Of a DNA stretch of 64,000 nt, positions 9,786-34,791 are shown one piece after another. Source of the DNA: Candidatus Aminicenantes bacterium (GTDB taxonomy: Bacteria > Acidobacteriota > Aminicenantia > Aminicenantales > Aminicenantaceae); NCBI GenBank assembly GCA_011772475.1, contig WVZK01000044.1:14727-78726 (forward strand). The letters are read 5' to 3'. Every line of letters starts with the position of its first letter. Within the stretch, counting starts at the first letter, position 1. The position numbers and the translations under genes are program-made. The notes below the pieces were generated by a model, which was given only the letters and a program-made list of their open reading frames with translations, had not been told where the DNA came from and made no database searches.

Positions 9786-9815
9786 TTGACATGTCTATTA
9801 TTTTTTTTATAGAAT
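9786..9815 (+). promoter_or_regulatory. candidate sigma-70 promoter of the 9-gene respiratory operon
   Basis: TTGACA (9786-9791) is followed, after 16-18 nt, by TATAGAAT (9808-9815). It lies in a very AT-rich 400-bp intergenic region with a duplicated AAAATAATAGAA (about 9907 and 9939). Confidence 0.4.
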
Positions 9816-9974
9816 TCTTTATTAAATGTTTACTATTCCAATCAATATTATATTTATTTTGAGTTAAGATTTCTATTCTATATTTTAAAATATTTTTTTT
9901 ATAGTAAAATAATAGAAAAAACGTACTAAAAAAATTAAAATAATAGAATTGAGAGCTAAACTCTTGGAAGAATA

Positions 9975-10508
9975 ATGAAAATACTCAGAAATATAAATGT
10001 TCCTTTTTCTAGAAATCAAATTTTAGCCATTTTGGGGGGCATCCTCGTCGTTGTTGTGATTTTGATCTTCATTTTTGGAGCTGTTTGGGGAGGCGTTAAG
10101 CAGCCCATTTCTTTTAATCATAAAATTCATGCGGAGAATGATTTGGATTGCTTGGATTGTCATCCCTATTTTAATGAACATGCTTCATCAGGGAGACCGA
10201 GTCTAGAGACATGCATGAGCTGCCATGAGGAACCTCAAGGTGAAAGCTTGGCTGAAAAAAAGCTTTTAGAATATATAAAATCTGGGAATGAGATTGACTG
10301 GCAAAGACTTTATCGGGTTCCTGAAGATGTTTATTTTTCCCATAGGAGGCATGTAGTTTTAGGGCAAATTGATTGTATGACTTGTCATGGAAATATCGGC
10401 GAAAGTCCCAAGCCGCCTTCAGAGCCTTTAAAAATAACTATGAAGAAATGCATGAAATGTCATGAAGAAAAAGAGGCTAGTAACGATTGTATTGCCTGTC
10501 ATAGATAG
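9975..10508 (+). CDS. membrane-anchored pentaheme cytochrome c (ActA / c3-c7 family-like)
   Basis: 177 aa with an N-terminal TM helix (ILAILGGILVVVVILIFIFGAVWG). Five CXXCH motifs: CLDCH, CMSCH, CMTCH, CMKCH, CIACH. FNHKIH...CLDCH is a typical c7/ActA-type start. Confidence 0.8.
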   Translation: MKILRNINVPFSRNQILAILGGILVVVVILIFIFGAVWGGVKQPISFNHKIHAENDLDCLDCHPYFNEHASSGRPSLETCMSCHEEPQGESLAEKKLLEYIKSGNEIDWQRLYRVPEDVYFSHRRHVVLGQIDCMTCHGNIGESPKPPSEPLKITMKKCMKCHEEKEASNDCIACHR

Positions 10509-10556
10509 AAGTGATTTGAATATATTCTTACCGAAAACTCCAAAAAGGACGAATAA

Positions 10557-13016
10557 ATGGGCTTAAAAAGAAGAGATTTCCTTAAAATAATCGGAGGATC
10601 AGCTCTTAGCTTTTCTCTCTATGATTGTTCTACTAAGAATTATCTTTCTCCGATAAGAGAAAAGGAATGGAGCCCCAAGGTTGAAGAATGGATTCAATCT
10701 GTTTGTTTCGCTTGCCCTGGAGGCTGTGGGATATTGGGCAGAGTGGTTGATGGCAAGCTCGTAAAAATTGAAGGGAACCCCGCTCATCCTATTAATCGAG
10801 GGAAACTCTGTCCTGTAGGCCAGGCAAGCCTTCAGGTTCTTTACAGTCCTGATAGAATCAAAGGGCCTATGAAAAAAATCGGAGGAAAAGATTCTAGCAA
10901 ATGGCAGAGCATTAGTTGGGAAGAGGCTATGGAGACCTTGGTTTCAAAGCTCAAAGAATTAAGGAACGCTGGAGACTCTCATAAATTAGTTTTGTTGAAT
11001 GGGGGAAATAGAGGAATTCTCAGTGAAATTTTTGATAGATTCATGAAAGTTTTTGGCTCTCCCAATCATTTCCGCTATGATTTTTATAATAGTCTTACCC
11101 AGGCCTATTATCTTACTCAAGGGATTGATGAATTATTAGCTTATGATTTTGAAAACAGCAACTATATTCTTTCTTTTGGCAGCAGTTTCTTAACCTCTTG
11201 GCCCTCACCTGTTCAATCTATGAGAGCGTATGCTTTTTTAAGGCAGGGAAGGCCAGGGAAAAAAGCAAAGATCGCTCAGATCGAGCCTAGGTTTTCGATA
11301 GCTGCTTGTCGAGCGGATAAGTGGATCCCTATCGAACCCGGCACAGAGGGGCTGCTGGCATTAGGAATCGCCTATGTTCTCATCAAAGAAAGGCTCTACG
11401 ATAGAAATTTTATCGAGAAATTTACCTTTGGTTTTGAAGATTGGGAAGATGAAGATGGAAATAGCCATTACGGATACAAGAACTTAGTATCGGAAAGATA
11501 TCGATTAGATTTTGTTTCAGAAACCACTGGAGTTTCAGTTGATGATATTGTTACTCTTGCCAAAGATTTTGCTATGAATAAGCCTGCCATAGCCATTTTA
11601 GACCATAATGCCACTAATTATTCTAATGGATTGTATAATGCATTGGCCATTCATTCATTAAACGCTCTGATCGGAAGCATCGATGTGCCAGGAGGAGTTT
11701 TAGTTCAGAGAAAAGTGCCTCTTCAAGAATTACCCAAGATATCTGTAGATGAGGCTACAAAGATGAATCTTTCTCAGCCAGCAATTGATAGCCCTGAAGA
11801 AGGCCAATTCCCCCTGGCCACTTCGACTCCTTCCCTGATTCCAGAAAACATTCTTAAGGGAAAGCCATATCCTGTGAATTTAGCTTTCATCTGCAAAGCC
11901 AATCCCTTATTCTCATCCCCGAATTCAGAGAAATACCGAAAAGCCTTTGAGAAGATTCCTTTTATTGTAAGCTTTTCTTCTTTCATGGATGAGAGCACTC
12001 TGTATGCTGACCTTGTTCTTCCGGATAAAACCTATCTTGAAAAATGGCAGTATGCAGAAAGTTCCCCTGTTTCAAAAACTCCAGCCATTGGCATCGGGAA
12101 GCCCATTGTAGAGAATTTATTTAATGCGAAGCCTACCGAAGATGTTATTTTAGAGGCGGCTCAAAGGATGGGATCATCTTTTGCGAGTCATTTTCCTTGG
12201 AAAAATTCTAAGGATTTTCTCCTTTACAAGATTGATACTCTTTTTCGAGCTCGCAAAGGTATTATCTTCTCTGATCCTTTTGAAGAAACTCAGTTAAAGC
12301 TTTTGGAAGAGCGTGGTTGGTGGGTTCCTCAATTCACTTCAGCCAGCGAATTTAAGGCAGAATTAATGCAAAAAGGAGGATGGTGGGATCCGGCTTATAG
12401 CTTTGGCCAAAGGAGCTTTGTATTCAGGACTCCATCAAGAAAGTTTGAATTTTATTCTCAATTATTTGTAAAAAGGATTGAAAAAATTGCAGAACAAATA
12501 GGAGAGAATAGAGAGGATAAGAAGGATGTTATTTTTAATCAACTAAATTTTGAATCCAGAGGAGACGATTTTTTCATGGCTCATTATGAAAAGCCGCAAT
12601 TTGAGGGCGATAAGAAGGAATTTCCTCTGTATTTGTATATATATCAACCTTTTAGTTTAACCAATGAATATGAAGCTAACCAACCTTGGTTTCAGGAAAT
12701 TATGGGATTTCACCTTAACATGAACTGGGATTCATGGGCTGAGATTAATCCCCATACAGCTTCTGAATTAGGAATCGCAGATAATGATTTAATTTGGATT
12801 GAGTCTGTTCATGGAAAAGTTAGAGTTAAGGCAAAGATTTATTCCGGAGCCATGCCTGATGTGGTAAGTGTCCCTTTTGGATTGGGACATAGAGCTCTTG
12901 GCCAATGGGCCAAAAATAGAGGAATCAATCCTATTGATCTTATAGGAGCAAACTTTGATCAGCTGACGGGCTTAGCTATGAAATTATCAACGCGAGTAAA
13001 AATCTATAGAGCCTAG
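10557..13016 (+). CDS. Tat-exported molybdopterin-oxidoreductase-family large subunit (PsrA/ActB1/QrcB-like)
   Basis: 819 aa. Twin-arginine signal MGLKRRDFLKIIGGSALSF. N-terminal 4Fe-4S motif CFAC-PGG-C-x27-C. Whether it binds Mo/W cannot be decided by eye. Confidence 0.8.
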   Translation: MGLKRRDFLKIIGGSALSFSLYDCSTKNYLSPIREKEWSPKVEEWIQSVCFACPGGCGILGRVVDGKLVKIEGNPAHPINRGKLCPVGQASLQVLYSPDRIKGPMKKIGGKDSSKWQSISWEEAMETLVSKLKELRNAGDSHKLVLLNGGNRGILSEIFDRFMKVFGSPNHFRYDFYNSLTQAYYLTQGIDELLAYDFENSNYILSFGSSFLTSWPSPVQSMRAYAFLRQGRPGKKAKIAQIEPRFSIAACRADKWIPIEPGTEGLLALGIAYVLIKERLYDRNFIEKFTFGFEDWEDEDGNSHYGYKNLVSERYRLDFVSETTGVSVDDIVTLAKDFAMNKPAIAILDHNATNYSNGLYNALAIHSLNALIGSIDVPGGVLVQRKVPLQELPKISVDEATKMNLSQPAIDSPEEGQFPLATSTPSLIPENILKGKPYPVNLAFICKANPLFSSPNSEKYRKAFEKIPFIVSFSSFMDESTLYADLVLPDKTYLEKWQYAESSPVSKTPAIGIGKPIVENLFNAKPTEDVILEAAQRMGSSFASHFPWKNSKDFLLYKIDTLFRARKGIIFSDPFEETQLKLLEERGWWVPQFTSASEFKAELMQKGGWWDPAYSFGQRSFVFRTPSRKFEFYSQLFVKRIEKIAEQIGENREDKKDVIFNQLNFESRGDDFFMAHYEKPQFEGDKKEFPLYLYIYQPFSLTNEYEANQPWFQEIMGFHLNMNWDSWAEINPHTASELGIADNDLIWIESVHGKVRVKAKIYSGAMPDVVSVPFGLGHRALGQWAKNRGINPIDLIGANFDQLTGLAMKLSTRVKIYRA

Positions 13017-13030
13017 AAAAGGAGAAAGAA

Positions 13031-13723
13031 ATGCCTCGATGGGGAATGGTTATTGATTTAGATAGGTGTACTGCATGTCAAGCGTGCGTTGTGGCATGTA
13101 AAGCTGAGAATAATATTCCCTTTTCTTCACCCAAAGAAGCTGGAAGAAGAAGAATTATCTCCTGGATGCGTGTATTACCAATGATGGAGGGAGAATATCC
13201 TAACCTTAGAGAAAGGTTTATTCCCAGGCCATGTATGCATTGCGATAATCCTCCTTGCGTAAAAGTCTGTCCCGTTGGTGCTACTTATAAGAATAAAGAA
13301 GGATTAATTGCCCAAGTCTATACCCAATGTATAGGCTGTCGCTATTGTACCAATAACTGTCCTTATACTCTAAAGTACTTTAATTGGTTTAGACCCGAAT
13401 GGCCGGAGGAAATGGAAAATTATCTAAACCCAGATGTCTCGATTCGAAGCAAGGGTGTGGTCGAGAAATGCACTTTCTGTCATCATCGCCTCCAAAAAGC
13501 CAGAGAAAAAGCTCGGGCAGAAAACAGAGAGCTTAAGGAAGAAGATTATATCCCTGCTTGTGTTCAGACATGTCCCACTGATGCCATCTATTTTGGAGAT
13601 TTGGATGATTCTAAAAGCAAAGTGGCCCAGTTGGCAAGAAGTCCTCGAGCCTTTCGTCTTTTAGAAGAATTAGGAACAGAACCCAAGGTCTACTATCTCT
13701 CTGAAGGAGAATGGCATGGATAA
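13031..13723 (+). CDS. four-cluster 4Fe-4S ferredoxin subunit (PsrB/NrfC/ActB2/QrcC-like)
   Basis: 230 aa. Cys groups are CTACQACVVAC, CMHCDNPPCVKVC, CIGCRYCTNNC and CTFCHHR...CVQTC. It has no signal peptide, consistent with hitch-hiking on the Tat subunit. Confidence 0.88.
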   Translation: MPRWGMVIDLDRCTACQACVVACKAENNIPFSSPKEAGRRRIISWMRVLPMMEGEYPNLRERFIPRPCMHCDNPPCVKVCPVGATYKNKEGLIAQVYTQCIGCRYCTNNCPYTLKYFNWFRPEWPEEMENYLNPDVSIRSKGVVEKCTFCHHRLQKAREKARAENRELKEEDYIPACVQTCPTDAIYFGDLDDSKSKVAQLARSPRAFRLLEELGTEPKVYYLSEGEWHG

Positions 13724-15086
13724 AGATACATTAGATGAGCATTTTGTTGATGAGGTTGCGCATGAAGATGCTCCCATTCTCAAGCCTATCCTCTACACGA
13801 GCAAGAGATTTTATACAGTCGTTTTTATTCTTGTGGTCATTATCCTAATTGGCGTTCTCGCTTGGATATTCCAGCTTAGAAAGGGACTGGGAATCACAGG
13901 ACTAAATCAGCCAATATTTTGGGGATTTTACATAACTAACTTTGTCTTTTTTATCGGAATTAGCCATGCTGGGACATTGATTTCGGCTATTCTTCGTTTG
14001 GCTCGAGCGGAATGGAGAAGAGCCATCACTCGCTCAGCTGAAGTTATAACAGTTCTAGTCCTCTTTTTTGGGGTTTTCAACATCATTACTGATTTGGGTC
14101 AGCCTGGTCGGATGTTTAAAGTCTTTACCGATGGCAAGCTGAGTTCTCCGTTGCTTTGGGATGTTTTAAGTATATCGCTTTATTTAGCAGCGAGCGCCAT
14201 CTATCTTTATTTGCCTCTTATTCCAGACATTGCCTTGATGAGAGATAAATTTAAAAGTAAAACTAAAAGACTTTTTTACAGGATACTGGCTTTAAACTGG
14301 AAAGGAACAGAAAAACAATGGGCGATACTGGAAAAAGCCATTTCTATAATGGCCGTGGTCGTTATCCCTGTTGCAGTTTCCGTTCATACGGTTGTTTCTT
14401 ATGTTTTTGCCATGACCATTCAGCCTATGTGGCACAGCACAATTTTTGGCCCCTATTTCGTCACCGGAGCAATTTTCTCTGGCATTGCTGCCTTGATCAT
14501 TGCCATGTATTTTATCCGGCGAAGCTATCATCTTGAAGATTATTTAAAGCCTATTCATTTTAACAATTTAGGTTTATTGCTTCTGGTAATGAGTCTCTTG
14601 TGGTTTTATTTCACTTTTACCGAGAATCTGACAGCTTTTTATGGGGCCGAGCCTGCTCATCTGACCGTTTTTTGGAGCAAATTCATTGGAGGATATGCCC
14701 CATATTTTTGGACTATGGTGGGAAGCTGTTTTGTCATTCCTCTCGTTATTTTATCTAACAGAAGAACAAGGACTGTAACAGGCACGACGATAGCTTCGGT
14801 ATCAGTAATTATAGGGATGTGGCTGGAGAGATTCACGATAGTTTTGCCAACTTTAATAAATCCCAGACTCCCTTATGAAAAAGGAATGTACCATCCGACA
14901 TGGATCGAATTTGCTGTTACTGCAGGATGCTTTGCTACCTTTATTTTACTCTATGTATTATTTACAAAATTTTTCCCTATAGTTTCTATATGGGAAGTGA
15001 AAGAAGGCAAAGAGATAGGCGTGAAAGAGACTGAGGAACGCATTAAAAGTTATCTTCCTGGGAAAGAAAAAGAAAATTTGAAATGA
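13716..15086 (+). CDS. NrfD/PsrC/ActC-family integral membrane quinone-interacting subunit
   Basis: 456 aa and polytopic (about 10 predicted helices). The start overlaps the FeS gene by 8 nt. IFWGFYITNFVFFIGISHAGTLISAILRL is typical of the NrfD family. Confidence 0.85.
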   Translation: MDKDTLDEHFVDEVAHEDAPILKPILYTSKRFYTVVFILVVIILIGVLAWIFQLRKGLGITGLNQPIFWGFYITNFVFFIGISHAGTLISAILRLARAEWRRAITRSAEVITVLVLFFGVFNIITDLGQPGRMFKVFTDGKLSSPLLWDVLSISLYLAASAIYLYLPLIPDIALMRDKFKSKTKRLFYRILALNWKGTEKQWAILEKAISIMAVVVIPVAVSVHTVVSYVFAMTIQPMWHSTIFGPYFVTGAIFSGIAALIIAMYFIRRSYHLEDYLKPIHFNNLGLLLLVMSLLWFYFTFTENLTAFYGAEPAHLTVFWSKFIGGYAPYFWTMVGSCFVIPLVILSNRRTRTVTGTTIASVSVIIGMWLERFTIVLPTLINPRLPYEKGMYHPTWIEFAVTAGCFATFILLYVLFTKFFPIVSIWEVKEGKEIGVKETEERIKSYLPGKEKENLK

Positions 15087-15125
15087 AATATTAATATTTG
15101 CATCTAGAAGAAGAAGGAAAGAGAG

Positions 15126-16709
15126 ATGAATGAATCGATTAAAAAAACGAAAAATATTTATTTTATCTTAGGCATAATTTTCACTACTGGCGTTTTGATT
15201 TCCTTGTTCGCTGCTGAAGAAAATAAGAGCTTTACTTTTCCAGAAGATCCTTTGAAAGGAAGTAAGCTTTTTGTCAGCAAAGGTTGTATAAAATGCCATT
15301 CTATATGGGGAATCGGAGATACTCTTGGTCCTGATCTTGCCGACATGAGTAGAGAACAAAATCTTCTCCAGTTAGCTGGATTACTGTGGAGCCACTCTCC
15401 TAAAATGATAGAAATCATGCATGAGAGAGGAGTTTCTCGTCCCCTCTTTACTCCTCAAGAAATGGGCGATTTAATGGGCTATATTTATTATTTCAATTAT
15501 TTTGGTCGACCCGGTAATTTTATAGAAGGGGAAAAGCTGTTTCAGGAAAAGGGTTGTACAAGCTGCCATTCAGTAGGCGAGAATGGAGGCAAAACTAAGA
15601 TTTCCTTGGATGATTATGGGAAGTACATTTCTCCTTCGTTTTTAGTGACTGGTCTTTGGAATCATAGCCCTGAGATACTTTCTGAAATAAGAAGATTAGG
15701 TATAGAACAACCTGAATTCCATGGTCAGGAATTGGCTCATCTGCTGGCTTATATGCGAGGCGCAGCTCTAAATGAGGATGGAGACATCACCTATGCAGAA
15801 CCAGGAAGCCCGAAAAGAGGAAAAGATATCTTCATACAAAAAAAATGCAATGTGTGCCATGCTGTTTTCGGCGAAGGAGGAAGACGAGGGTCTGATTTGG
15901 GAAAAAGAGAGCTGCGGCTGACTCTCACTGAGATTTCAGGAAAAATATGGAGCCATTCTGGTCAAATGTGGCAGGAAATGAAGAGGATTGGCATTCCTTT
16001 TCCGATTTTTTCGCCTAAAGAAATGGCCGACCTCATTTCTTTTCTCTACTTCATTCAGTTTTATGAGGAGAAGGGAGATCCAGTAGAGGGAAAAAAACTT
16101 TTTAGAGAGAAAGTTTGTATTTTTTGTCATGCCCTAGAGGGGGAAGGAGAAAACGTTGGCCCTGATCTTACCAAGAGCGAGGCCCATTTTTCGCCAATTT
16201 TTTTGGCCTCTTCAATGTGGAATCATGCGATCGTAATGGAAGATATGCTGGCCGAGAAAGATCTGGGATGGCCACGCTTTTCTGGAAACGAGATGCGGGA
16301 TCTTGTTAGCTATGTTCAAGAAGCTTCCGAAAGATCTAAGGAAGAACGAATGAAAAGGCCTATCGTTCCTTCAAAACCAAAAGTTCTTTTTCTTTCTGAA
16401 AATAGGTTTGACCTTGAACTTGCCAGGAGCGGAAAAAAGATTTATATAGCGAAGGCATGTAATGCTTGCCACAACATCACTGGGAAAAAGCGTGCCATGG
16501 GTGGAGACCTCAAAGACATCACTAAAATAAGAGATTTGCAATGGCTTTTTAATTTTATTAAAAACCCAAAATCGATGCTTAAAACAGATGATCTAGCAAA
16601 GCAACTTCTTCAAGAATTCAACAATATCCCCATGCCACAACAGGGTTTGACCGATGAAGAAGTCATTGCCATTATCGAATATTTAAAGTCTCCTGAAAAA
16701 ATAGAATAG
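15126..16709 (+). CDS. membrane-anchored cytochrome c with five tandem class-I monoheme domains
   Basis: 527 aa with an N-terminal TM helix. There are five repeats of the G-x-x-[LI]F-x-x-K-x-C-x-x-CH pattern: CIKCH, CTSCH, CNVCH, CIFCH, CNACH. Confidence 0.8.
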   Translation: MNESIKKTKNIYFILGIIFTTGVLISLFAAEENKSFTFPEDPLKGSKLFVSKGCIKCHSIWGIGDTLGPDLADMSREQNLLQLAGLLWSHSPKMIEIMHERGVSRPLFTPQEMGDLMGYIYYFNYFGRPGNFIEGEKLFQEKGCTSCHSVGENGGKTKISLDDYGKYISPSFLVTGLWNHSPEILSEIRRLGIEQPEFHGQELAHLLAYMRGAALNEDGDITYAEPGSPKRGKDIFIQKKCNVCHAVFGEGGRRGSDLGKRELRLTLTEISGKIWSHSGQMWQEMKRIGIPFPIFSPKEMADLISFLYFIQFYEEKGDPVEGKKLFREKVCIFCHALEGEGENVGPDLTKSEAHFSPIFLASSMWNHAIVMEDMLAEKDLGWPRFSGNEMRDLVSYVQEASERSKEERMKRPIVPSKPKVLFLSENRFDLELARSGKKIYIAKACNACHNITGKKRAMGGDLKDITKIRDLQWLFNFIKNPKSMLKTDDLAKQLLQEFNNIPMPQQGLTDEEVIAIIEYLKSPEKIE

Positions 16710-16743
16710 ATTCTTGAATTGAAAGAAAACTACGGGCATAAAA

Positions 16744-18672
16744 ATGAAGTATAAAGTGTGGGTGCCAGATTTATTATGGTATAGAACAAATATTTTATGT
16801 ATGGAAGCCTGCCCTGTTCATACTGATTCTGGAAGATATGTTCAACTCATCGGGATAGGAGAAGATCAAGAGGCCTATTTAGTCGCACGGTCCTCCAACC
16901 CTTTTGCCTCTGTTTGTGGTCGGATATGCGCTGCTCCTTGTGAAGACGCCTGCCGAAGAGGAAAAATCAATGAATCTATTACAATTAGGTCTTTGAAAAA
17001 ATTTGTTACGGAAAAATATGGTGTTGAATCTAAGATAGCCCATACTCAAGAGCTGCTTACAGAAGGAAAGAAAATTCCACAAGGATCTGTGTGGCCTCTC
17101 CATGTGTCTTCTGTGATTAAGAGAGAAACATCTAAGACAAGGAAAAAAGTCGCTGTCGTCGGAGGAGGGCCTTCGGGATTAGCTTGTGCCCATGATTTGG
17201 CCTTGAGAGGCTATCAAGTAACCATATTTGAAGCCTCTAATATGCTGGGCGGAATGCCGAGAACAGCTATTCCAGAGTACAGATTGCCAAAAGATATTTT
17301 GAGAAAAGAGGCAGAATTTGTGCTTTCTTTAGGAGTTGAAGTCAGATTTAATACGCCTCTCAGTGAAAATTTCGGCCTTGATGAATTGAAGAAGCTGGGT
17401 TTCGAAGCATTTTATATTTCTGTGGGAGCCCAGCAGAGTCGAGAACCTAATATTGAAGGCACAGAGTTGGAAGGTGTTTTTAATGCCACTGATTACCTTT
17501 TGAATATAAACCAAGGTTATAAAATAGAATTAGGAAGAAGGACGGTTATCATCGGAGGAGGTCTAGTGGCTCTAGATTCGGCTCGAACCGCGTTGAGAGA
17601 AGTTCTGGCTCACCTTTCTGATTCGGAAGAAGCAAAGCTAGCTATCGATATATCTGCAGAGGCTGGAATGATGATGACTGCGATTGATGTTGCTCGAACA
17701 GCCTTGAGAAGAGGAACACTTAAGGTTGATGTGGCTAGCCTTGAGTCATTTGAAGAGATGCCGGCTACCCAAAGCACTCAAGGAAAAGAAGAATTTGAAG
17801 AATCTGTTAGAGAAGGAATTACTTTCCATCCCTCCCGAGGTCCAAAGCGAATTATTGGCGAGGGCGGACAAGTCAAAGCTGTTGAGTTTCTCAAAGTCAA
17901 AAGAGTTTTTGATGAGAAAGGGCGATTTAATCCTGAGCTTGAGCCGAAAACAGAAGAGATCATTGAAGCCGATTCTGTAATCCTGGCTATAGGTCAAAGG
18001 CCTGATCTTACATTTATTAGACCAAAAGATGGGGTAGAAATAACGCCCCAGGGGACGATCAAGGTGGATCCTCATACTCTGGCCACGACTCGAGAAGAGG
18101 TATTTGCAGGAGGAGATGCAGCTTTTGGGGCGAGAATCCTTATCGAGGGAGTGGCTAATGGGAAAGTGGCTGCCCACTCAATTGACAATTATTTGCGTAA
18201 AAAGAGAGGCACAGAGAAAATGTGTTCTGTCTCTATAAAGGTTCTATCACACCAAGATTATAAGAAGCCTGAAGAATATGAGATTAGGGAGAGAAAGACA
18301 CCTGATAAAATTTCTCTGGAACACCGAACAGGAGCAAATGAAGTGGAACTCTCTTTTGAAGAAAAAGAAGCTCGATCACAGGCACAGCGCTGTTTGATTT
18401 GCCATATTAACACTATTTATGACTCTGAGCTATGTATTCTTTGCGGCGCCTGTGTTGATCACTGTCCAAACAACTGCTTAAAGCTTGTTCCCTTCTCTGA
18501 GATTGAACTTGAACAAAGAGAAATCATAGAAAAGAAAATAAAAAATAAGAAAAGAAAATCATTAACGGCAATGATCAAAGATGAGATAGTTTGTATACGC
18601 TGCGGCATTTGTGCCGACGTATGTCCTACTAGAGCCATGACCATGGAAAGATTTTCTTTTAGGGAGATGTAG
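16744..18672 (+). CDS. GltD-like NAD(P)H-dependent FAD oxidoreductase with N-terminal FeS Cys motifs and a C-terminal 2x[4Fe-4S] ferredoxin domain
   Basis: 642 aa. CMEACPVH...NPFASVCGRICAAPCEDACRRG is the glutamate-synthase small-subunit type. Dinucleotide folds are KKVAVVGGGPSGLACAHDLALRG and RTVIIGGGLVALDSA. C-terminus carries CLICH...CILCGACVDHCP and CIRCGICADVCP. Confidence 0.82.
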   Translation: MKYKVWVPDLLWYRTNILCMEACPVHTDSGRYVQLIGIGEDQEAYLVARSSNPFASVCGRICAAPCEDACRRGKINESITIRSLKKFVTEKYGVESKIAHTQELLTEGKKIPQGSVWPLHVSSVIKRETSKTRKKVAVVGGGPSGLACAHDLALRGYQVTIFEASNMLGGMPRTAIPEYRLPKDILRKEAEFVLSLGVEVRFNTPLSENFGLDELKKLGFEAFYISVGAQQSREPNIEGTELEGVFNATDYLLNINQGYKIELGRRTVIIGGGLVALDSARTALREVLAHLSDSEEAKLAIDISAEAGMMMTAIDVARTALRRGTLKVDVASLESFEEMPATQSTQGKEEFEESVREGITFHPSRGPKRIIGEGGQVKAVEFLKVKRVFDEKGRFNPELEPKTEEIIEADSVILAIGQRPDLTFIRPKDGVEITPQGTIKVDPHTLATTREEVFAGGDAAFGARILIEGVANGKVAAHSIDNYLRKKRGTEKMCSVSIKVLSHQDYKKPEEYEIRERKTPDKISLEHRTGANEVELSFEEKEARSQAQRCLICHINTIYDSELCILCGACVDHCPNNCLKLVPFSEIELEQREIIEKKIKNKKRKSLTAMIKDEIVCIRCGICADVCPTRAMTMERFSFREM

Positions 18673-18677
18673 TTTCA

Positions 18678-19142
18678 GTGAAAGAAAATGAAAGAAAAAT
18701 AACTAGAAGATTCTTTTTTGGAGTCTTAGGCAAAACATCAATTATCGTGGCTTTACTGGCAGAAGCAATAGGAGCAATTAAAGCTTTTATTCCTAAGGTC
18801 CTCTATGAACCGCCTTCTAAATTTAAAATTGGCAAACCAGAAGACATCCCAGAAGGAATAACTTTTCTTCCACAACATAGATTATACATTTTTAGAAATA
18901 ATGATGACTTTCATGCAATTTCAGCTGTGTGCACTCATCTGAAATGCATCGTCGATTGGAAACCAGATCAAAGGGAATTTTACTGCCCCTGTCATGGAAG
19001 TATATTTTCTCAAGCTGGGATTAATCTAACAGGACCTGCTCCAAAGCCTCTTCCATGGTATCCTTTATCCCTTGCTCCTGATGGTAACTTGGTTATAGAT
19101 TCAAGCAAACAAGTCAAGCCAGATTATAAGTATTCCCTTTAA
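18678..19142 (+). CDS. Rieske [2Fe-2S] protein
   Basis: 154 aa, GTG start. Tat-like anchor TRRFFFGVLGKTSIIVALLA. Rieske boxes CTHLKC and CPCHGS. Confidence 0.9.
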   Translation: MKENERKITRRFFFGVLGKTSIIVALLAEAIGAIKAFIPKVLYEPPSKFKIGKPEDIPEGITFLPQHRLYIFRNNDDFHAISAVCTHLKCIVDWKPDQREFYCPCHGSIFSQAGINLTGPAPKPLPWYPLSLAPDGNLVIDSSKQVKPDYKYSL

Positions 19143-19154
19143 AGAGAGATATAT

Positions 19155-20456
19155 ATGAAAGAAAAGTTGACTAATATATGGAGGAAATTAACCTGGTCTT
19201 GGTCTCCACGATCAGAACGGGAGGCGAGCGAATCTGTCATCAAAAATTTCTGGTTACACTGGTTCCCATCGCGGATATCTCTCCGGAGTTTAGGCTGGAG
19301 TTATTCTCTTTGGTTGGGAACAATTGCTGCCTGCCTGTTTATCATCTTGGCAATCACTGGACTTTTGCTTCTTTATTTCTATATTCCTTCCGTCCGGAGC
19401 GCTTATTGGAGCATAAAGGACTTAGAAAATGTTGTTGTTTTTGGCTCGCTTCTCCGAGCTCAACATCGGTGGGCTGCTGAGTTAATGGTTGCAGTTGTTT
19501 TCATTCATCTGATGAGGGTCTTTTTTACTGCCTCATATCGTGACCAGAGAGTATGGAATTGGTATATTGGAATTGGTCTCTTGGTCATAACGCTTTTTCT
19601 TTCCTTTACCGGCTATATTCTTCCCTGGGATCAGCTCGCTTATTGGGCCTTGACTATAGGGATGAGTATTGCCAGCGAAATTCCTTTTCTTGGCAAGAGT
19701 ATCAGTTTTCTTTTGGCCGGAGGAAATGTATTAGGACAAAATAGCCTCCTCCGTTTTTTTGTTCTTCATAATTTTTTTCTTCCCGCTATGCTTCTCTTTC
19801 TGTTTGCTCTTCATATGTGGAGAATTAGAAAAGATGGAGGGCTAACTTCTATGGACAGGTTGATACGAGAAACGCAATTAAAAGAAACTCCTGTCAGTCC
19901 TACCAAGTCATATTCCTTGCTGGGGGTTACCGAAGGAACAACCATTCAGGTCACAACAACACAAGTGCTTGATGAAAGAAATTCCGTGAGGAGCTCTCCT
20001 CATTTACTCCGTAGAATTGCAGTTGTTTTTTTGATCACAACAATCTTCACTTTAGGACTTGCTCTTCTTTCTCCAGCACCATTGGAAGAGCCTGCTAACC
20101 CTTCTGTAACTCCAATTCCTGCCAAGGCTCCCTGGTATTTTCTCTGGCTTCAGGAATTGATTGCTATTACAACTATCAAAATCGGGAAGATAACAATAAG
20201 CGGTGGCCTGATCGGAGGAATTCTAGTTCCAGGCTTTCTTTTTCTTTTAGCTATTCTCTGGCCTTTTTTGGATAGAAGCCCCAAAGAAGCCATTGGAGTC
20301 TGGTTTCATAAAAAAAGAAGAATTCAAAACAGTGTTTTCATTTTAATCTGCGTGGTGATTATAGTTCTTATCATAATTGGCCTTTATTTAAGAGGACCAT
20401 ACTGGAAATTTTTCTGGCCATGGCAGCCTTGGCCTGAAATTCCGGCTCAATTCTAG
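19155..20456 (+). CDS. cytochrome b (fused b6 + subunit-IV-like, extended C-terminus)
   Basis: 433 aa and polytopic. RAQHRWAAELMVAVVFIHLMRVFF and FTGYILPWDQLAYWALTIG are cytochrome b/b6 signatures. Confidence 0.88.
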   Translation: MKEKLTNIWRKLTWSWSPRSEREASESVIKNFWLHWFPSRISLRSLGWSYSLWLGTIAACLFIILAITGLLLLYFYIPSVRSAYWSIKDLENVVVFGSLLRAQHRWAAELMVAVVFIHLMRVFFTASYRDQRVWNWYIGIGLLVITLFLSFTGYILPWDQLAYWALTIGMSIASEIPFLGKSISFLLAGGNVLGQNSLLRFFVLHNFFLPAMLLFLFALHMWRIRKDGGLTSMDRLIRETQLKETPVSPTKSYSLLGVTEGTTIQVTTTQVLDERNSVRSSPHLLRRIAVVFLITTIFTLGLALLSPAPLEEPANPSVTPIPAKAPWYFLWLQELIAITTIKIGKITISGGLIGGILVPGFLFLLAILWPFLDRSPKEAIGVWFHKKRRIQNSVFILICVVIIVLIIIGLYLRGPYWKFFWPWQPWPEIPAQF

Positions 20457-20468
20457 GAGATCAAAGTT

Positions 20469-21689
20469 TTGAACAATAAAAAGAATTTCAATCCTGACAA
20501 AGATTTTTACTGGCTGGCTTTCTTTTCTTTCCTTCTATTCGTAGTGGTGATCATAGCTTTCTACAGGGAGGCAAATCCTGAATGGAAGAAATATCAGCGA
20601 GAATTCAAAAATTATCTCGAAGAAAACATAAGCCCAGAGTCAGCTTCTGCCTTTGAGTTTTCTGTAAAACAGCTCTGGCTTCCGGAGCTTAATAAGGTCG
20701 ATCGCTGCATCAGTTGTCATTTAGGATATGACCAACCTAATCTGACTGAAGCGCCGGAGCCTTATGCAGCCCACCCTGATATTTTGCCTCATTCTGTGTT
20801 GAAAATGGGATGCACTATTTGTCATGGAGGACAGGGTTTTGCACTCAAGAAAAAAGATGCTCATGGAGAAGTAGAACACTGGGAAGAGCCTATGTTGGGA
20901 GCGAAGCTGGCCAAAAAATATGGTTTTGAGTCTGAGAAAATATTGATGCAGATGAATTGTAACACTTGTCATCGCCGTGATGAGGATTTGACTGGAATGG
21001 AAATGATAAATCTTGGCAAGAACCTCTTGACTCAGAAGAAAAAATGTCAAACCTGCCATATCATAGATGGAAAAGGTGGAAAATTGGCAGCTGACCTAAC
21101 ATTTATCGGAGATAAACCGGCGGAGAGATTCGATTTTTCTCAAATTAAAGATAAACTTATCGAAAGCGAAAGACCTCTCTCCGTGTTGAGCTGGCATTTT
21201 GAACACTTTATGAATCCCAAGGCTGTTGTCCCTGATAGTAAAATGCCCTATGTCAAATATACAGAAGAGGAGGCATGGGCTTTAGCAATGTTAATGATGA
21301 GCTGGAGAAGTGTCAGCCTGCCCGTTATGCTCATACCCGAAGAAAAAAGGGAGGAAGTGCCACCTCCTGAAAAAAAGCTCGAGAAAAGGAAACTATCCAT
21401 TGTTGAATGGGGAAAAGAGCTCTTTGAAAGTAAGGGCTGTTCTGAGTGTCATACTATTGGAGGGGGAGTAGAGGTTGGTCCTGATCTAATAGGTATAACG
21501 AAATTGAGAGACATACAATGGTTGAGAAAAATGATTCTTGACCCTGAGAAAATGGAACAAACTGATCCACTAGCCAAAAAATTGTATCAAGAATATGAAG
21601 AAACTGGAATGCCTACAGAAGAATTAACCCTGCAAGAAGTCGAAGCGATCATTAAATATATTGAGTCCTTTAATAAGGAAAGTAATTAG
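20469..21689 (+). CDS. membrane-anchored pentaheme cytochrome c of the Rieske/cyt b complex
   Basis: 406 aa, TTG start 8 nt after AGGAGA, with an N-terminal TM helix. Motifs are CISCH, CTICH, CNTCH, CQTCH, CSECH. The last class-I domain is clearly paralogous to the last domain of the 15126..16709 protein (KLRDIQWL / KIRDLQWL, EAIIKYIES / IAIIEYLKS). Confidence 0.8.
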   Translation: MNNKKNFNPDKDFYWLAFFSFLLFVVVIIAFYREANPEWKKYQREFKNYLEENISPESASAFEFSVKQLWLPELNKVDRCISCHLGYDQPNLTEAPEPYAAHPDILPHSVLKMGCTICHGGQGFALKKKDAHGEVEHWEEPMLGAKLAKKYGFESEKILMQMNCNTCHRRDEDLTGMEMINLGKNLLTQKKKCQTCHIIDGKGGKLAADLTFIGDKPAERFDFSQIKDKLIESERPLSVLSWHFEHFMNPKAVVPDSKMPYVKYTEEEAWALAMLMMSWRSVSLPVMLIPEEKREEVPPPEKKLEKRKLSIVEWGKELFESKGCSECHTIGGGVEVGPDLIGITKLRDIQWLRKMILDPEKMEQTDPLAKKLYQEYEETGMPTEELTLQEVEAIIKYIESFNKESN

Positions 21690-21816
21690 AAACAAAAAAT
21701 ATACTTTTTACTCATTACTATTCTTTTGGTGACATTTAAGTAATTCCATATCGAAATACTGCGGCAGTTAACCAGTAAAATCACAGGATAAACTAAATTC
21801 AATTCCCCTAATTTCG

Positions 21817-21845
21817 TTGACAGAAAAAAGTTAATCCTATAATAT
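21817..21845 (+). promoter_or_regulatory. sigma-70-type promoter for the cytochrome-porin fusion gene
   Basis: TTGACA (21817-21822) is followed by TATAATAT (21838-21845). That gives a -10 at either 15- or 17-nt spacing. Confidence 0.5.
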
Positions 21846-21889
21846 AGTATTTCTATATTTATAGTATATAAATCACAGAAGGATTTAAA

Positions 21890-23116
21890 ATGAAAAGAAA
21901 ATTTATATTCTCAATTCTTTTTCTAGGAATTTGCGTTATAGCATCCGCTCAAGGCGATTCTTATCAAGGAGAGAGGCTATACCAACTTAAGTGTGGACGC
22001 TGCCATTTTGCCTATTCCCCTAGTAAGTATTCTGCTGAGGAATGGAAGACAATCATCAGCGAAATGGGCCCGCTTTCTGGATTAAACAAAGAGACCGAAG
22101 AAGTCATCTTGGATTACCTTCGACAGGAAGCTTCAAAAAAGGAAAGAGAGGCTCTGCCATCGAGTCCTGTCTTGGCTGGCTATGTTTACACTGAATTATT
22201 TTCATCTAAAGATATAACAGATACTTTTGACATCCACTATTTGAACATCAATCTAACGGGCCGAGTCCATGAAAGAATATCCTATCGCGCAGAATTTGAG
22301 TTTGAGCACGGAGGAGGGAAAGATGATCCCCCATTTATTGAACAGGCTTATATTGATGTATGGTTTTTGAAAAATGTAGGTTTAAGAATAGGGGCCATGT
22401 TGACTCCCTTCAATCGCTTTGATGAATTCCATGGTCCCTTAGAGAATCTTCTCGTCACCCGTCCCCAAGTGTCGAGGGAAATTGGAGTCAGTGCTTGGAA
22501 GGAAGTCGGTGTCAACCTTCATGGTAATCTCTTTATTAATAAAGATTTATACCTCAATTACGATGCTTATGTGATAAATGGGCTTGGCAGTGGAAGCCGA
22601 TTGAGAGGAAGTCGTCAATATCGAGACAATAACGATGCCAAAAGCTTTGGGGTTCGTTTAAGCGGAGTTTATTTAGATAGATGGGAAGTGGGTGCCTCAT
22701 ACTATAGGGGTGCCTGGGACGATGCAGGTGATTTCGATTTAAGCATTTATGGCTTTCATCTCATGGGAAAAATCGGTGAATTAAATCTTTTTGCTGAGTA
22801 TTCACGTTCCCTTTCTGAAAATCCAGATCCCTTTGAAGAGGGAAAAGCTGATGGGTATTTTATCCAAGCCTCTTACTTGATCAATGATAAATTCAGACCT
22901 ACGATCAGGTATGGAACTCTGGATTATTTGGACGGGGGAGGGCTCTTGGGTCGTAGCCCAACGGATTTCGATACCAGAGTCTTGGCCTTAGGATTCAATT
23001 ATTACCTCACTCGGGCCATTGTCTTTAAGATTGAATACGACATCGTTCAAGAGGGAGAAAGAAAAGAAGAGAAAGATAATAATCTTCTCGCCTTGCAAGC
23101 TGCAGTCAGGTTCTAA
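21890..23116 (+). CDS. outer-membrane porin-like beta-barrel (porin O/P-like) with an N-terminal monoheme cytochrome c domain
   Basis: 408 aa. Signal peptide MKRKFIFSILFLGICVIASAQ. Heme domain is GERLYQLKCGRCHFAY...EEWKTIISEMGPLSGL...EVILDYLRQ. The remainder has alternating amphipathic strands and ends in an aromatic residue (LALQAAVRF). Confidence 0.65.
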   Translation: MKRKFIFSILFLGICVIASAQGDSYQGERLYQLKCGRCHFAYSPSKYSAEEWKTIISEMGPLSGLNKETEEVILDYLRQEASKKEREALPSSPVLAGYVYTELFSSKDITDTFDIHYLNINLTGRVHERISYRAEFEFEHGGGKDDPPFIEQAYIDVWFLKNVGLRIGAMLTPFNRFDEFHGPLENLLVTRPQVSREIGVSAWKEVGVNLHGNLFINKDLYLNYDAYVINGLGSGSRLRGSRQYRDNNDAKSFGVRLSGVYLDRWEVGASYYRGAWDDAGDFDLSIYGFHLMGKIGELNLFAEYSRSLSENPDPFEEGKADGYFIQASYLINDKFRPTIRYGTLDYLDGGGLLGRSPTDFDTRVLALGFNYYLTRAIVFKIEYDIVQEGERKEEKDNNLLALQAAVRF

Positions 23117-23186
23117 CGGAACGTCTCAGCTATGGTGCAGTTAGAGGTGCCTAATTCTATTCCCTCTCCAAAAAGAAAAGAGATCA

Positions 23187-23618
23187 TTAGGATATTGATG
23201 AGAGAGCGGTTGCTATTCCTGTAAGCAATAGAATCGCGATCCCTAGAATAAATCCTATAGTAGCGAGATTGATCTGCATCTTTTGAAGTCGTGCCACCTC
23301 TGGTGATAGACCTTGTGCAGCAAGTCGTGAAACTTTGGGAGCTAGGATTTCCAAGGCGTATACAGCAAGAATGACTAACGGTACAGTGAAAATATGCTTA
23401 ATTAAAGTAACAAGAGTCCAAAGGTTGCCAAACCTAAAGACCCCTAAATAGCTCTTGTTGAGAAGGTTCATCACTATCCCTGTTACAGCGAGGAGCATCA
23501 TGCTGGCATAGACTAAGCTGCGAAACCTCTTCATGACTGAACCCATCAGTTTTCCCATAAACGCAGGCTCCAGCGTTTCCCTCATAGAGGGTAGGAGAAT
23601 TAATAAATTAGTGGCCAT
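23187..23618 (-). CDS. small polytopic membrane protein (CopD/DUF2269-like), possibly an N-terminally truncated remnant
   Basis: 143 aa, about 4 TM helices. The reading frame stays open upstream across a single TAG (23628-23630): ...APSIATVV*IGAMATNLLIL. Confidence 0.4.
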   Translation of the reverse strand: MATNLLILLPSMRETLEPAFMGKLMGSVMKRFRSLVYASMMLLAVTGIVMNLLNKSYLGVFRFGNLWTLVTLIKHIFTVPLVILAVYALEILAPKVSRLAAQGLSPEVARLQKMQINLATIGFILGIAILLLTGIATALSSIS

Positions 23619-23748
23619 GGCGCCAATCTAGACTACGGTTGCTATAGATGGAGCGTATTCATTAAAGAAAGCAAAATTAATAAAAGCGTCGGTGACGTTT
23701 GATCACCTTATGTTTTTTGGAATTAAAATTTCTTTTTTCGTTCAAGTC

Positions 23749-34745: not shown

Positions 34746-34791
34746 CCATTCCTCCTTGCAGTAATAAACCTTATTCGCATCTGCATTTATA

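What the first reader, a model, noticed from the sequence alone, without database searches (positions are those of the whole stretch)
16744..18672. GltD-like NAD(P)H/FAD/FeS protein embedded between the cytochrome c genes and the Rieske gene
A 642-aa cytoplasmic-type protein (no signal peptide) sits 5 nt upstream of the Rieske gene. It has glutamate-synthase small-subunit FeS motifs (CGRICAAPCEDACRRG), two dinucleotide-binding folds and a C-terminal 2x[4Fe-4S] ferredoxin domain. Canonical bc1/b6f operons carry no pyridine-nucleotide subunit. The placement implies electron exchange between the quinol/Rieske system and NAD(P)(H) or ferredoxin. That would be bioenergetically unusual, because quinol to NAD(P)+ is uphill and would need bifurcation or proton-motive-force input.
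Basis: inference. Interest (0 to 1): 0.7.

Follow-up and report, generated by a model that had tools for sequence, protein, structure and literature searches.

The report
Flavoprotein subunit of Rieske/cytochrome b complex
The gene is real and encodes the cytoplasmic iron-sulfur flavoprotein of an unusual quinol-oxidising membrane complex, a type so far described only in anammox bacteria and thought to make NAD(P)H from quinol; here it turns up in an Aminicenantes genome and, in relatives from several phyla, often beside the N2O reductase gene.

Summary
Window 16744-18672 (+) encodes a 642-aa soluble FeS flavoprotein 5 nt upstream of a Rieske gene. It has an N-terminal FeS domain, FAD and NAD(P) folds, a linker and a C-terminal 2x[4Fe-4S] domain.

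It is not a chance neighbour. All 18 loci examined that carry a full-length relative also carry Rieske plus cytochrome b genes next to it. They come from Acidobacteriota/Aminicenantes, Eisenbacteria, Nitrospirae, Chloroflexota, a Bacteroidota-named MAG and anammox Planctomycetes, with two gene orders.

All five core subunits are homologous to the Kuenenia Kuste4569-4573 complex. Its NAD(P) oxidoreductase subunit was proposed in 2013 to receive the low-potential electron of quinol oxidation.

This is a new variant:
- the haem cN cysteine is absent;
- cytochrome b and subunit IV are fused, giving 7 transmembrane helices;
- an NADH-type 'SLE' motif and a ~40-aa insertion replace the NADPH 'YRR' motif;
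- an ACIII/Qrc-like module and a porin-cytochrome are linked to it.

In six relatives the same module sits directly upstream of Sec-type nosZ.

Association with the complex is very likely. The direction of electron flow (NAD+ reduction or NADH oxidation) remains inference.

The parts
16744..18672 (+). 642-aa soluble FeS flavoprotein (DsrL/NfnB/GltD-like); proposed cytoplasmic subunit of the Rieske/cytochrome b complex
16792..17016 (+). N-terminal FeS domain (aa 17-91; invariant C19, C23, C58, C62, C66, C70)
   Evidence: Pfam Fer4_20; invariant columns
17161..17178 (+). FAD-binding glycine loop GGGPSG (aa 140-145)
17554..17571 (+). second Rossmann loop GGGLVA (aa 271-276), the NAD(P)-binding fold
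17599..17715 (+). family-specific ~40-aa insertion (aa 286-324) that repeats the helix ALDSARTALR as AIDVARTALRRG; the only low-confidence part of the model
   Evidence: a comparable insertion is reported for DsrL-1A
17737..17745 (+). S332-L333-E334 at the position of the NADPH-binding YRR motif of NfnB, DsrL-2 and Kuste4570
   Evidence: motif function from PMC7596348
18388..18405 (+). invariant R-C550-L-x-C553-H in the linker; candidate extra cluster ligands (inference)
18415..18639 (+). C-terminal 2x[4Fe-4S] ferredoxin domain (aa 558-632)
18678..19142 (+). Rieske [2Fe-2S] protein, 154 aa, with an RR-containing N-terminal membrane anchor; cluster boxes CTHLKC and CPCHGSIF (Ser/Phe pair)
19155..20456 (+). 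fused cytochrome b6-like plus subunit IV-like protein, 433 aa, 4+3 TM helices. Haem ligands H104, H118, H205, H220. His35 (nt 19257-19259) aligns with the proposed extra-haem ligand of Kuste4571. Trp53 (nt 19311-19313) replaces the haem cN cysteine. APWY motif at nt 20127-20138
20469..21689 (+). membrane-anchored pentahaem cytochrome c, 406 aa; its N-terminal half is homologous to the Kuste4573 orthologue
21890..23116 (+). outer-membrane porin (Porin_O_P-like) with an N-terminal cytochrome c domain; conserved after the module in L088
9975..16709 (+). co-oriented upstream module: pentahaem anchor cytochrome (9975-10508), TAT molybdopterin-family subunit (10557-13016), 4Fe-4S subunit (13031-13723), NrfD (13716-15086), 5x class-I cytochrome c (15126-16709). 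It stays linked to the flavoprotein module in relatives even when the order is swapped

Best explanation
The 642-aa protein is the cytoplasmic (N-side) subunit of a non-canonical Rieske/cytochrome b complex. The complex is made of the products of 16744-21689: flavoprotein, Rieske protein, fused cytochrome b/subunit IV and an anchored pentahaem cytochrome c. It is the same kind of complex as the 'NAD(P) oxidoreductase-containing' Rieske/cytochrome b complexes of anammox bacteria.

Proposed mechanism: menaquinol is oxidised at the P-side site. One electron goes to the Rieske cluster and on through c-type haems to a high-potential periplasmic acceptor. The other crosses the membrane through the two b haems. 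From there it passes, possibly via an extra haem held by His35 of the two cytochrome b monomers, to the C-terminal ferredoxin domain. It then runs along four FeS clusters to FAD, where two such electrons reduce NAD+. This is quinol-based electron bifurcation that yields NADH without spending proton-motive force.

Shown here: domain content, homology and linkage. Inferred: physical docking, the nucleotide (NADH rather than NADPH) and the direction of flow.
For: 1. Linkage. Of 80 GltD-like loci from species-representative genomes, only the 9 with a full-length match carry cytochrome b, and all 9 carry it with a Rieske gene adjacent. The same holds for 3 Aminicenantes-clade loci, 3 metagenome loci and 2 anammox loci. 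Two gene orders occur: flavoprotein-Rieske-b-c and flavoprotein-b-SUIV-Rieske.

2. Homology to the Kuenenia complex.
- Flavoprotein: 33% identity over the full length, E 5e-96, against the Kuste4570 orthologue.
- Rieske: the best solved relatives are 9rk4 (Kuste4569, 5e-24) and 9rk3 (Kustd1480, 5e-23); the next hit scores 1.7e-15.
- Cytochrome b: 40% identity. Subunit IV: 33% identity, with the same PAKAPWYF motif.
- Anchored cytochrome c: E 5e-16.

3. Cofactor path. His35 aligns with Kuste4571 His43, the proposed ligand of an interfacial haem. It is invariant in the 10 linked cytochromes b aligned and aligns with His43 of the Kuenenia orthologue. It is absent from the flavoprotein-less second cytochrome b of this window.

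4. Fold. The AF2 model has pLDDT 85.3 and pTM 0.86. Its nearest folds are the NAD(P)H/FAD/FeS modules of NfnABC, StnC, NfnI-L and NfnB.

5. Published support for the anammox homologues: subunits co-migrate, the Rieske potentials exceed +300 mV, and AF3 models show a cofactor path with steps of 15 A or less (PMC12954380).

6. The Rieske protein here keeps the potential-raising Ser (CPCHGS). The second Rieske protein of the window has CPCHNG instead.

7. Relatives are linked to very high-potential acceptors: nosZ in 6 loci and an HAO-like protein in anammox. By my arithmetic an acceptor must lie above about +180 mV, from 2 x (-70) - (-320), using the potentials quoted in PMC12954380.

8. [quoted passage not shown]
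Against: - No experiment or multimer model exists for this organism.
- The direction of flow is not determined by sequence.
- Described Aminicenantes are, to my knowledge, mostly organotrophs, which would not obviously need quinol-driven NADH synthesis.
- The haem cN cysteine is missing (Trp53). The Arg next to the first ferredoxin cluster, which contacts the extra haem in the Kuenenia model, is Ala here. The electron path may therefore differ from the published model.
- No high-potential terminal reductase lies within the operon.
- The His35 motif may also occur in flavoprotein-less ExtP-type cytochromes b; this was not tested.
Confidence: 0.55

Rival explanations
1. Same complex, opposite direction. 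The flavoprotein is an NADH-oxidising input module. NADH reduces FAD, and electrons pass through the FeS chain to the N-side haem(s) and reduce menaquinone at the N-side site, or feed the b haems directly. The operon would then encode a self-contained NADH:cytochrome c oxidoreductase serving periplasmic or extracellular acceptors.
For: The flow is thermodynamically downhill. It suits an organotroph. The SLE motif predicts NAD(H), the catabolic carrier. The operon is embedded in a multihaem-cytochrome and porin island typical of outward electron transfer. GltD, NfnB and DsrL modules are reversible wires.
Against: PMC12954380 argues that this direction wastes energy where proton-pumping NADH dehydrogenases exist. 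The Rieske protein keeps a high-potential signature. DsrL-1A, the closest analogue in motif and insertion, is biased toward NAD+ reduction. Replacement of the cN cysteine by a bulky Trp may mean the N-side quinone pocket is altered (inference).
Confidence: 0.27
2. The flavoprotein is attached to the complex, but its soluble partner is not a pyridine nucleotide. The insertion and the loss of YRR would have converted the second Rossmann fold into a structural element or a site for another partner, such as ferredoxin, flavodoxin or a thiol/disulfide couple.
For: A ~40-aa insertion of low model confidence sits inside the NAD(P) domain. The YRR motif is lost. Relatives in the Nfn and Stn enzymes handle ferredoxin.
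Against: The GGGxxA loop and the surrounding Rossmann elements are invariant across 63 sequences. DsrL-1A carries a comparable insertion, lacks YRR, and is an active NAD(H) enzyme. Other members of the same Rieske-linked family (Kuenenia, Chloroflexota) keep a canonical YRR site.
Confidence: 0.08
3. Fortuitous adjacency. The protein is a soluble NfnB/SudA/DsrL-type enzyme that works with an unrelated partner encoded elsewhere.
For: Generic GltD-like proteins are abundant, and most have soluble partners: 71 of 80 loci in the survey have no cytochrome b nearby.
Against: Every full-length family member examined (18 of 18 loci, at least six phylum-level groups, two gene orders) sits beside Rieske and cytochrome b genes. 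The intergenic gap is 5 nt. No NfnA, SudB, GltB or DsrAB partner gene was seen in the window.
Confidence: 0.04

Closest known systems
Kuenenia stuttgartiensis Rieske/cytochrome b complexes with an NAD(P) oxidoreductase subunit (Kuste4569-4574 and Kustd1480-1485; hypothesis of Kartal et al. 2013; Hauser et al. 2025, PMC12954380)
   Same: The five core subunits are shared and homologous: Rieske protein, FeS flavoprotein with four cluster motifs plus FAD and NAD(P) folds, b6-type cytochrome b, subunit IV-like part with the PAKAPWYF motif, and an anchored multihaem cytochrome c. The His proposed to bind an extra interfacial haem b is conserved. The Rieske protein has the Ser/Phe pair of Kustd1480.
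   Different: - Gene order: the flavoprotein gene comes before the Rieske gene.
- Cytochrome b and subunit IV are fused, and the subunit IV part has 3 rather than 5 TM helices.
- The haem cN cysteine is absent (Trp53).
- SLE and a ~40-aa insertion replace YRR. The Scalindua orthologue has the same insertion with CLE.
- No HAO-like gene lies in the operon. Instead an ACIII/Qrc-like module and a porin-cytochrome are linked.
- The host is Aminicenantes, not an anammox bacterium.
DsrL, in particular DsrL-1A (NAD(P)H:acceptor oxidoreductase of dissimilatory sulfite reductase; PMC7596348)
   Same: Identical domain order: N-terminal two-cluster domain, FAD domain with an embedded NAD(P) domain, a ~100-aa linker and a C-terminal 2x[4Fe-4S] ferredoxin domain. 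DsrL-1 also lacks YRR, with an S/T-L/V-E/F-type replacement. DsrL-1A also has a ~32-aa insertion in the NAD(P) domain.
   Different: The partner is soluble DsrAB, not a membrane complex. There are no dsr genes here. Identity to a probable DsrL-1A (L037) is only about 29%. That DsrL identification is my inference.
NfnB / NfnI-L / NfnABC / StnC and GltD / DPD N-terminal modules
   Same: These are the best sequence and fold matches among solved structures. All are NAD(P)H-FAD modules wired through two [4Fe-4S] clusters.
   Different: They are soluble enzymes with other partners (NfnA, GltB, hydrogenase- or formate-dehydrogenase-like domains). They carry YRR and have no C-terminal ferredoxin domain of this type. 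The N-terminal CxxC of NfnB is missing here, and an RCLxCH motif appears in the linker instead.
Geobacter extHIJKLMNOPQS cluster (PMC5877670)
   Same: Both combine a phosphate-porin-like outer-membrane protein with multihaem cytochromes, a Rieske protein, cytochrome b and a small membrane protein. The best NCBIfam matches of the window's cytochrome b are ExtP and ExtQ, both below cut-off.
   Different: The ext cluster has no flavoprotein.

Membership tests
Anammox-type Rieske/cytochrome b complex with NAD(P) oxidoreductase subunit | Rieske, b6-type cytochrome b, subunit IV-like part, multihaem c and an FeS flavoprotein are encoded together | tested here: met
   Genes at 16744-21689, separated by gaps of 5-12 nt
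Anammox-type Rieske/cytochrome b complex with NAD(P) oxidoreductase subunit | The flavoprotein is homologous over its full length to Kuste4570 | tested here: met
   33% identity, E 5e-96, residues 9-640 against 16-572 of the Kuenenia sp. orthologue. P0243, 89% identical to that orthologue, is named as the K. stuttgartiensis NAD(P) oxidoreductase subunit
Anammox-type Rieske/cytochrome b complex with NAD(P) oxidoreductase subunit | The Rieske protein belongs to the Kuste4569/Kustd1480 type | tested here: met
   Best PDB hits are 9rk4 and 9rk3, eight orders of magnitude ahead of the next hit
Anammox-type Rieske/cytochrome b complex with NAD(P) oxidoreductase subunit | N-terminal His of cytochrome b proposed to ligate an extra interfacial haem b | tested here: met
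   His35 aligns with His43 of the Kuste4571 orthologue and is invariant in 10 linked cytochromes b. Whether a haem binds there cannot be tested here
Anammox-type Rieske/cytochrome b complex with NAD(P) oxidoreductase subunit | Covalent haem cN (Cys equivalent to b6 Cys35) | tested here: not met
   Trp53 occupies the position. The Cys is kept in Kuenenia, Nitrospirae and Chloroflexota members
Anammox-type Rieske/cytochrome b complex with NAD(P) oxidoreductase subunit | Subunit IV-like protein with five TM helices | tested here: not met
   Three TM helices in the fused C-terminal part, against five in the Kuenenia protein
Anammox-type Rieske/cytochrome b complex with NAD(P) oxidoreductase subunit | Physical association of the flavoprotein with the membrane complex | not testable with these tools
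   Only single-chain prediction was available. Co-migration is reported for Kuenenia
DsrL | DsrL domain order: N-terminal FeS domain, FAD/NAD(P) domains, linker, C-terminal 2x[4Fe-4S] domain | tested here: met
DsrL | Encoded in an organism or locus with dsrAB (criterion 1 of PMC7596348) | tested here: not met
   No dsr genes among the window's ORFs. The partner genes are Rieske and cytochrome b. The rest of the genome was not seen
Glutamate synthase small subunit (GltD) / NfnB | Scores above the curated family cut-offs and carries the YRR NADPH motif | tested here: not met
   All NCBIfam hits fall below cut-off; the best is PRK12771 with 397 bits against a cut-off of 516. SLE stands at the YRR position

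The most novel reading that the evidence does not exclude
Flavoprotein-bearing Rieske/cytochrome b complexes are not an anammox peculiarity. They are a widespread respiratory device in Acidobacteriota/Aminicenantes, a Bacteroidota-named lineage, Eisenbacteria, Nitrospirae, Chloroflexota and Planctomycetes. The device uses the surplus driving force of a high-potential periplasmic reduction to push the second quinol electron uphill onto NAD(P)+. The acceptor would be N2O via Sec-type NosZ, nitrite in anammox, or an unknown acceptor behind the ACIII/Qrc-like module and porin-cytochrome here. If so, quinone-based bifurcation with a pyridine-nucleotide output would be a general alternative to pmf-driven reverse electron transport. 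It would also mean that part of clade II-like N2O respiration is coupled to NADH formation.
Probability: 0.3. Interest if true: 0.85.

Novelty: new variant of a known kind. Interest (0 to 1): 0.55.

Why it matters
The hypothesis that a Rieske/cytochrome b complex can deliver its low-potential electron to NAD(P)+ has been discussed since 2013. As far as I found, only for anammox bacteria, and to my knowledge these are not available in pure culture or genetically tractable.

Three results widen the question:
- The same five-subunit module occurs in at least six phylum-level groups.
- It comes in NADH-type and NADPH-type versions.
- It is often placed directly upstream of nosZ.

This offers natural variants for testing which parts of the proposed electron path are essential: with or without haem cN, and with 3 or 5 subunit IV helices. 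It also raises a concrete, testable question about the energy yield and redox balance of N2O reduction in non-denitrifying N2O reducers.

For this window, it assigns a function to a gene that automatic annotation calls only 'FAD-dependent oxidoreductase'.

Tried and rejected
- First AF2 run, 17 sequences at 53% identity or more: pLDDT 57.6, unusable. It was replaced by a 63-sequence alignment that includes anammox homologues.
- Model coordinates are not exposed, so Cys-cluster geometry and the role of C550/C553 could not be measured.
- Multimer prediction with cytochrome b is not possible with these tools.
- The promoter/terminator scan of 9200-23700 gave counts close to shuffled controls. It was used only to note that there is no evident terminator before 16744.
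- The Rfam scan of the window found no matches.
- Kartal 2013 and Sanford 2012 are not held in the library. Their content is cited through PMC12954380 or marked as memory.
- Literature searches for a flavoprotein in nos clusters, or for this complex in Aminicenantes, found nothing. Absence from this library is not proof of novelty.
- L045 (Chromatiales) and L040 (Chlorobium) were considered as DsrL. They are longer YRR-type proteins with other C-terminal domains, so they were dropped.
- No Kuenenia or other cultured-organism hit appeared in that scan. The Kuenenia locus was reached indirectly, through the PDB Rieske sequence.
Full report
**1. Observation**

The ORF 16744..18672 (+) is real and encodes 642 aa.
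- Pfam finds Fer4_20 (aa 17-91), Pyr_redox_2 (134-464) and two Fer4 motifs (558-632).
- The quoted motif CGRICAAPCEDACRRG lies at aa 58-73.
- The two glycine-rich loops are GGGPSG (140-145) and GGGLVA (271-276).
- A hydropathy scan finds no membrane segment.
- The Rieske ORF starts 5 nt after the stop codon. A 527-aa protein with five CxxCH motifs ends 34 nt upstream.
- The identical protein is deposited as 'FAD-dependent oxidoreductase [Candidatus Aminicenantes bacterium]', assembly GCA_012974965.1.

All NCBIfam matches are below their curated cut-offs. The best is PRK12771, with 397 bits against a cut-off of 516. The protein is therefore a GltD-superfamily member but belongs to no named family.

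**2. The operon**

Ten genes lie on the + strand, 5-48 nt apart or overlapping, except for about 200 nt before the last one:
- a membrane-anchored pentahaem cytochrome;
- a TAT-exported molybdopterin-family subunit;
- a 4Fe-4S subunit;
- an NrfD membrane subunit;
- a cytochrome with five class-I domains;
- the flavoprotein;
- a Rieske protein;
- a fused cytochrome b6/subunit IV protein with 4+3 TM helices;
- an anchored pentahaem cytochrome c;
- a porin with an N-terminal cytochrome domain.

The promoter/terminator scan is no better than shuffled sequence. It shows no terminator between 16709 and 16744.

**3. Is the adjacency meaningful?**

A scan of one genome per species returned 80 loci that encode GltD-like proteins.

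Only nine of those loci match the query over its full length, including the C-terminal ferredoxin domain. Exactly those nine have cytochrome b and a Rieske gene directly adjacent. The other 71 have neither. The nine are:
- four Acidobacteriota MAGs;
- one Eisenbacteria MAG;
- one Nitrospirae MAG;
- one Chloroflexia MAG and two Limnocylindria MAGs.

The Chloroflexota loci have the order flavoprotein, cytochrome b, subunit IV, Rieske. The others have flavoprotein, Rieske, cytochrome b, cytochrome c.

Nine further loci, reached through exact-protein look-ups, show the same linkage. In total, 18 of 18 full-length family members examined sit beside Rieske and cytochrome b genes. Fortuitous adjacency is effectively excluded.

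**4. Relation to the known anammox complexes**

PMC12954380 (Hauser et al. 2025) reports the following:
- Kartal et al. (2013) proposed that these complexes bifurcate quinol electrons to NAD(P)+ and to a high-potential acceptor.
- The subunits co-migrate.
- The Rieske potentials exceed +300 mV.
- AF3 models trace four FeS clusters and a new interfacial haem b, held by His43 of Kuste4571.

Comparison with the window:
- The window's Rieske protein matches those two crystal structures best: 9rk4 at 5e-24 and 9rk3 at 5e-23, with the next hit at 1.7e-15. It has the Ser/Phe pair of Kustd1480.
- I reached a Kuenenia sp. locus through the Rieske sequence.
- The flavoprotein is 33% identical over its full length (E 5e-96).
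- Cytochrome b is 40% identical.
- The subunit IV part is 33% identical, with the same PAKAPWYF motif.
- The anchored cytochrome c is homologous in its N-terminal half (E 5e-16).
- His35 of the window's cytochrome b aligns with His43. It is invariant in all ten linked cytochromes b aligned.
- The motif is missing from the second, flavoprotein-less cytochrome b of the same window.

The window holds a homologue of that system in a different phylum.

**5. How this member differs**

a. The b6 Cys35 that binds haem cN is Trp53 here. It is also lost in the Acidobacteriota and Eisenbacteria members. It is kept in Kuenenia, Nitrospirae and Chloroflexota.

b. Cytochrome b and subunit IV are fused. The subunit IV part has three rather than five helices.

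c. The NAD(P) domain differs.
- Where NfnB, Kuste4570 and the Chloroflexota members have YRR, the window has S332-L333-E334.
- The Scalindua orthologue and the Eisenbacteria member have CLE. The Nitrospirae member has TLE.
- A ~40-aa insertion that repeats the preceding helix precedes the motif in most non-YRR members. The Nitrospirae protein lacks it.
- PMC7596348 shows experimentally that YRR-type DsrL-2 uses only NADP(H). DsrL-1 enzymes carry S/T-L/V-E/F-type replacements and use NAD(H).
- DsrL-1A has a ~32-aa insertion in the same domain and is biased toward NAD+ reduction.
- By analogy I predict NAD(H) for the window's protein. This is an inference.

d. The neighbouring modules differ (see section 7).

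**6. Structure**

With a 63-sequence alignment the AF2 model reaches pLDDT 85.3 and pTM 0.86. Only the insertion (296-324) is uncertain.

Foldseek places the model next to the NAD(P)H/FAD/FeS modules of NfnABC (9n5u, 9bov), StnC (8oh5), NfnI-L, Xfn, NfnB, DPD and GltD. Sequence search gives the same list.

Sixteen invariant cysteines would suffice for four clusters:
- six in the N-terminal domain;
- two in an RCLxCH motif in the linker;
- eight in the ferredoxin domain.

The N-terminal CxxC of NfnB is absent, and the linker CxxC may replace it. This is an inference, because I could not inspect coordinates.

**7. Context and the high-potential partner**

Six relatives at about 46-55% identity have nosZ and nosD directly after the four-gene module. 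These are L002, L003 and L007 (Acidobacteriota) and L084, L085 and L086. The L084 flavoprotein equals an NCBI protein named 'Sphingobacteriales bacterium CHB3'.

These NosZ proteins have Sec or lipoprotein leaders without a twin arginine. A NosB-like membrane protein follows them. This is the clade II pattern (pattern as described in PMC11409646).

The window has no nosZ. Within the Aminicenantes clade:
- L088 (82% identity) repeats the window's ten-gene order.
- L089 (80% identity) has the molybdopterin/FeS/NrfD/cytochrome module downstream instead of upstream.

The two modules thus stay linked through a rearrangement.

The molybdopterin subunit is closest to ArrA (6cz7, E 5e-88) and to PsrA. 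ArrA's 'SSVCAE' cysteine, which from memory is the molybdenum ligand, aligns with Asn. It may therefore be a cofactor-less QrcB/ActB-like subunit. This is unresolved.

Energetically, bifurcation from menaquinol (about -70 mV) to NAD+ (-320 mV) needs an acceptor above roughly +180 mV. This is my arithmetic, using the potentials quoted in PMC12954380. N2O and nitrite qualify. The acceptor here is unknown.

**8. Mechanism and rivals**

Best explanation (0.55): the protein is the N-side subunit. It takes the low-potential electron from the b haems through four FeS clusters to FAD and reduces NAD+.

Within that figure, association with the complex is very likely (about 0.85-0.9). The direction of flow is the weak step.

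Rivals:
- The same complex running from NADH toward quinone or cytochromes (0.27). This suits an organotroph in a cytochrome-rich, porin-linked island.
- A non-nucleotide partner (0.08).
- Chance adjacency (0.04).

**9. Verdict**

This is a new variant of a known kind.

Two by-products stand out: the cross-phylum distribution and the nosZ linkage. I could not find either described in the held literature.

Interest is 0.55.

Noticed in passing
L002, L003, L007, L084, L085, L086 (for example L084:9001-19896): In relatives at about 46-55% identity, the four-gene module (flavoprotein, Rieske, cytochrome b, pentahaem c) is followed directly by nosZ, a NosB-like membrane protein, nosD and an ABC-type ATPase gene (plus nosL in L084). 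The NosZ proteins have a Sec or lipoprotein leader and no twin arginine. I did not find this linkage described in the searched literature.
   Followed up: partly
window 37441-42209 (-): A second Rieske/cytochrome b set without a flavoprotein: a NapC/NirT-like multihaem protein (40218-42209), a Rieske protein (39791-40216, CPCHNGRF, no Ser), cytochrome b (38710-39834, canonical PEWY, no NxxLHxxP motif, no cN Cys) and a multihaem c (37441-38706). It served as an internal control.
   Followed up: partly
window 9975-16709 (+); L089:15042-21664: An ACIII/Qrc-like module: pentahaem anchor cytochrome, TAT molybdopterin-family subunit, FeS subunit, NrfD, and a 5x class-I cytochrome c. It stays linked to the flavoprotein module even when it is moved downstream (L089). 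The cysteine in ArrA's 'SSVCAE' stretch (from memory the molybdenum ligand) aligns with Asn in the 819-aa subunit, so it may lack the cofactor, like QrcB and ActB.
   Followed up: partly
window 27627-30281 (-); L087:16439-17824: An 884-aa protein made of two tandem FAD-binding halves is 45% identical to a ~910-aa protein encoded two genes downstream of the Scalindua rubra Rieske/cytochrome b/flavoprotein cluster. The same gene, split in two, is also near the module in L088. Its function is unknown. A UbiA prenyltransferase gene (24904-26070) lies nearby in the window.
   Followed up: partly
window 47491-48786 (-): A 431-aa 'Multi-haem_cyto' protein is homologous (26% identity, E 3e-38) to the HAO-like octahaem protein (Kuste4574 orthologue) of the Kuenenia cluster. 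It lies 26 kb from the flavoprotein operon, next to ResB/CcsA cytochrome c biogenesis genes (45303-47470).
   Followed up: partly
window 33700-52300: The region is a dense multihaem-cytochrome island. It holds a 174-aa cytochrome (34221-34745), a 687-aa multihaem protein with a hydrophobic C-terminal half (35239-37302), a cytochrome/FeS/NrfD trio (42430-45179), a 704-aa outer-membrane beta-barrel protein (49140-51254) and a Paired_CXXCH cytochrome (51264-52244). A sigma-54 two-component pair follows at 52843-55718. This suggests extracellular or periplasmic electron transfer.
   Followed up: no
window 21890-23116 (+): A Porin_O_P-like outer-membrane protein carries an N-terminal domain that Pfam scores as dihaem cytochrome c, but only one CxxCH motif is present. 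The gene is conserved after the module in L088. It resembles the porin-plus-Rieske/cytochrome b combination of the Geobacter ext cluster.
   Followed up: partly
window 10671-10742, 14834-14888, 15505-15656 versus L001: The stored copy of the NCBI contig (L001) is identical to the window except for three short stretches that are shorter there. This shortens its gene calls for the molybdopterin, NrfD and cytochrome c genes (801, 421 and 325 aa, against 819, 456 and 527 aa). It is probably an assembly or storage difference. It does not affect the flavoprotein gene.
   Followed up: partly
P0336-P0360, L087 versus P0243-P0330 (anammox flavoproteins): Among the kuste4569-type homologues recovered, the Scalindua-named proteins and L087 carry the insertion and a CLE motif. 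The Kuenenia, Brocadia and Jettenia proteins, and some other Scalindua-named proteins (P0308, P0326), have no insertion and YRR. This predicts different nucleotide specificity for the same complex in different lineages.
   Followed up: partly
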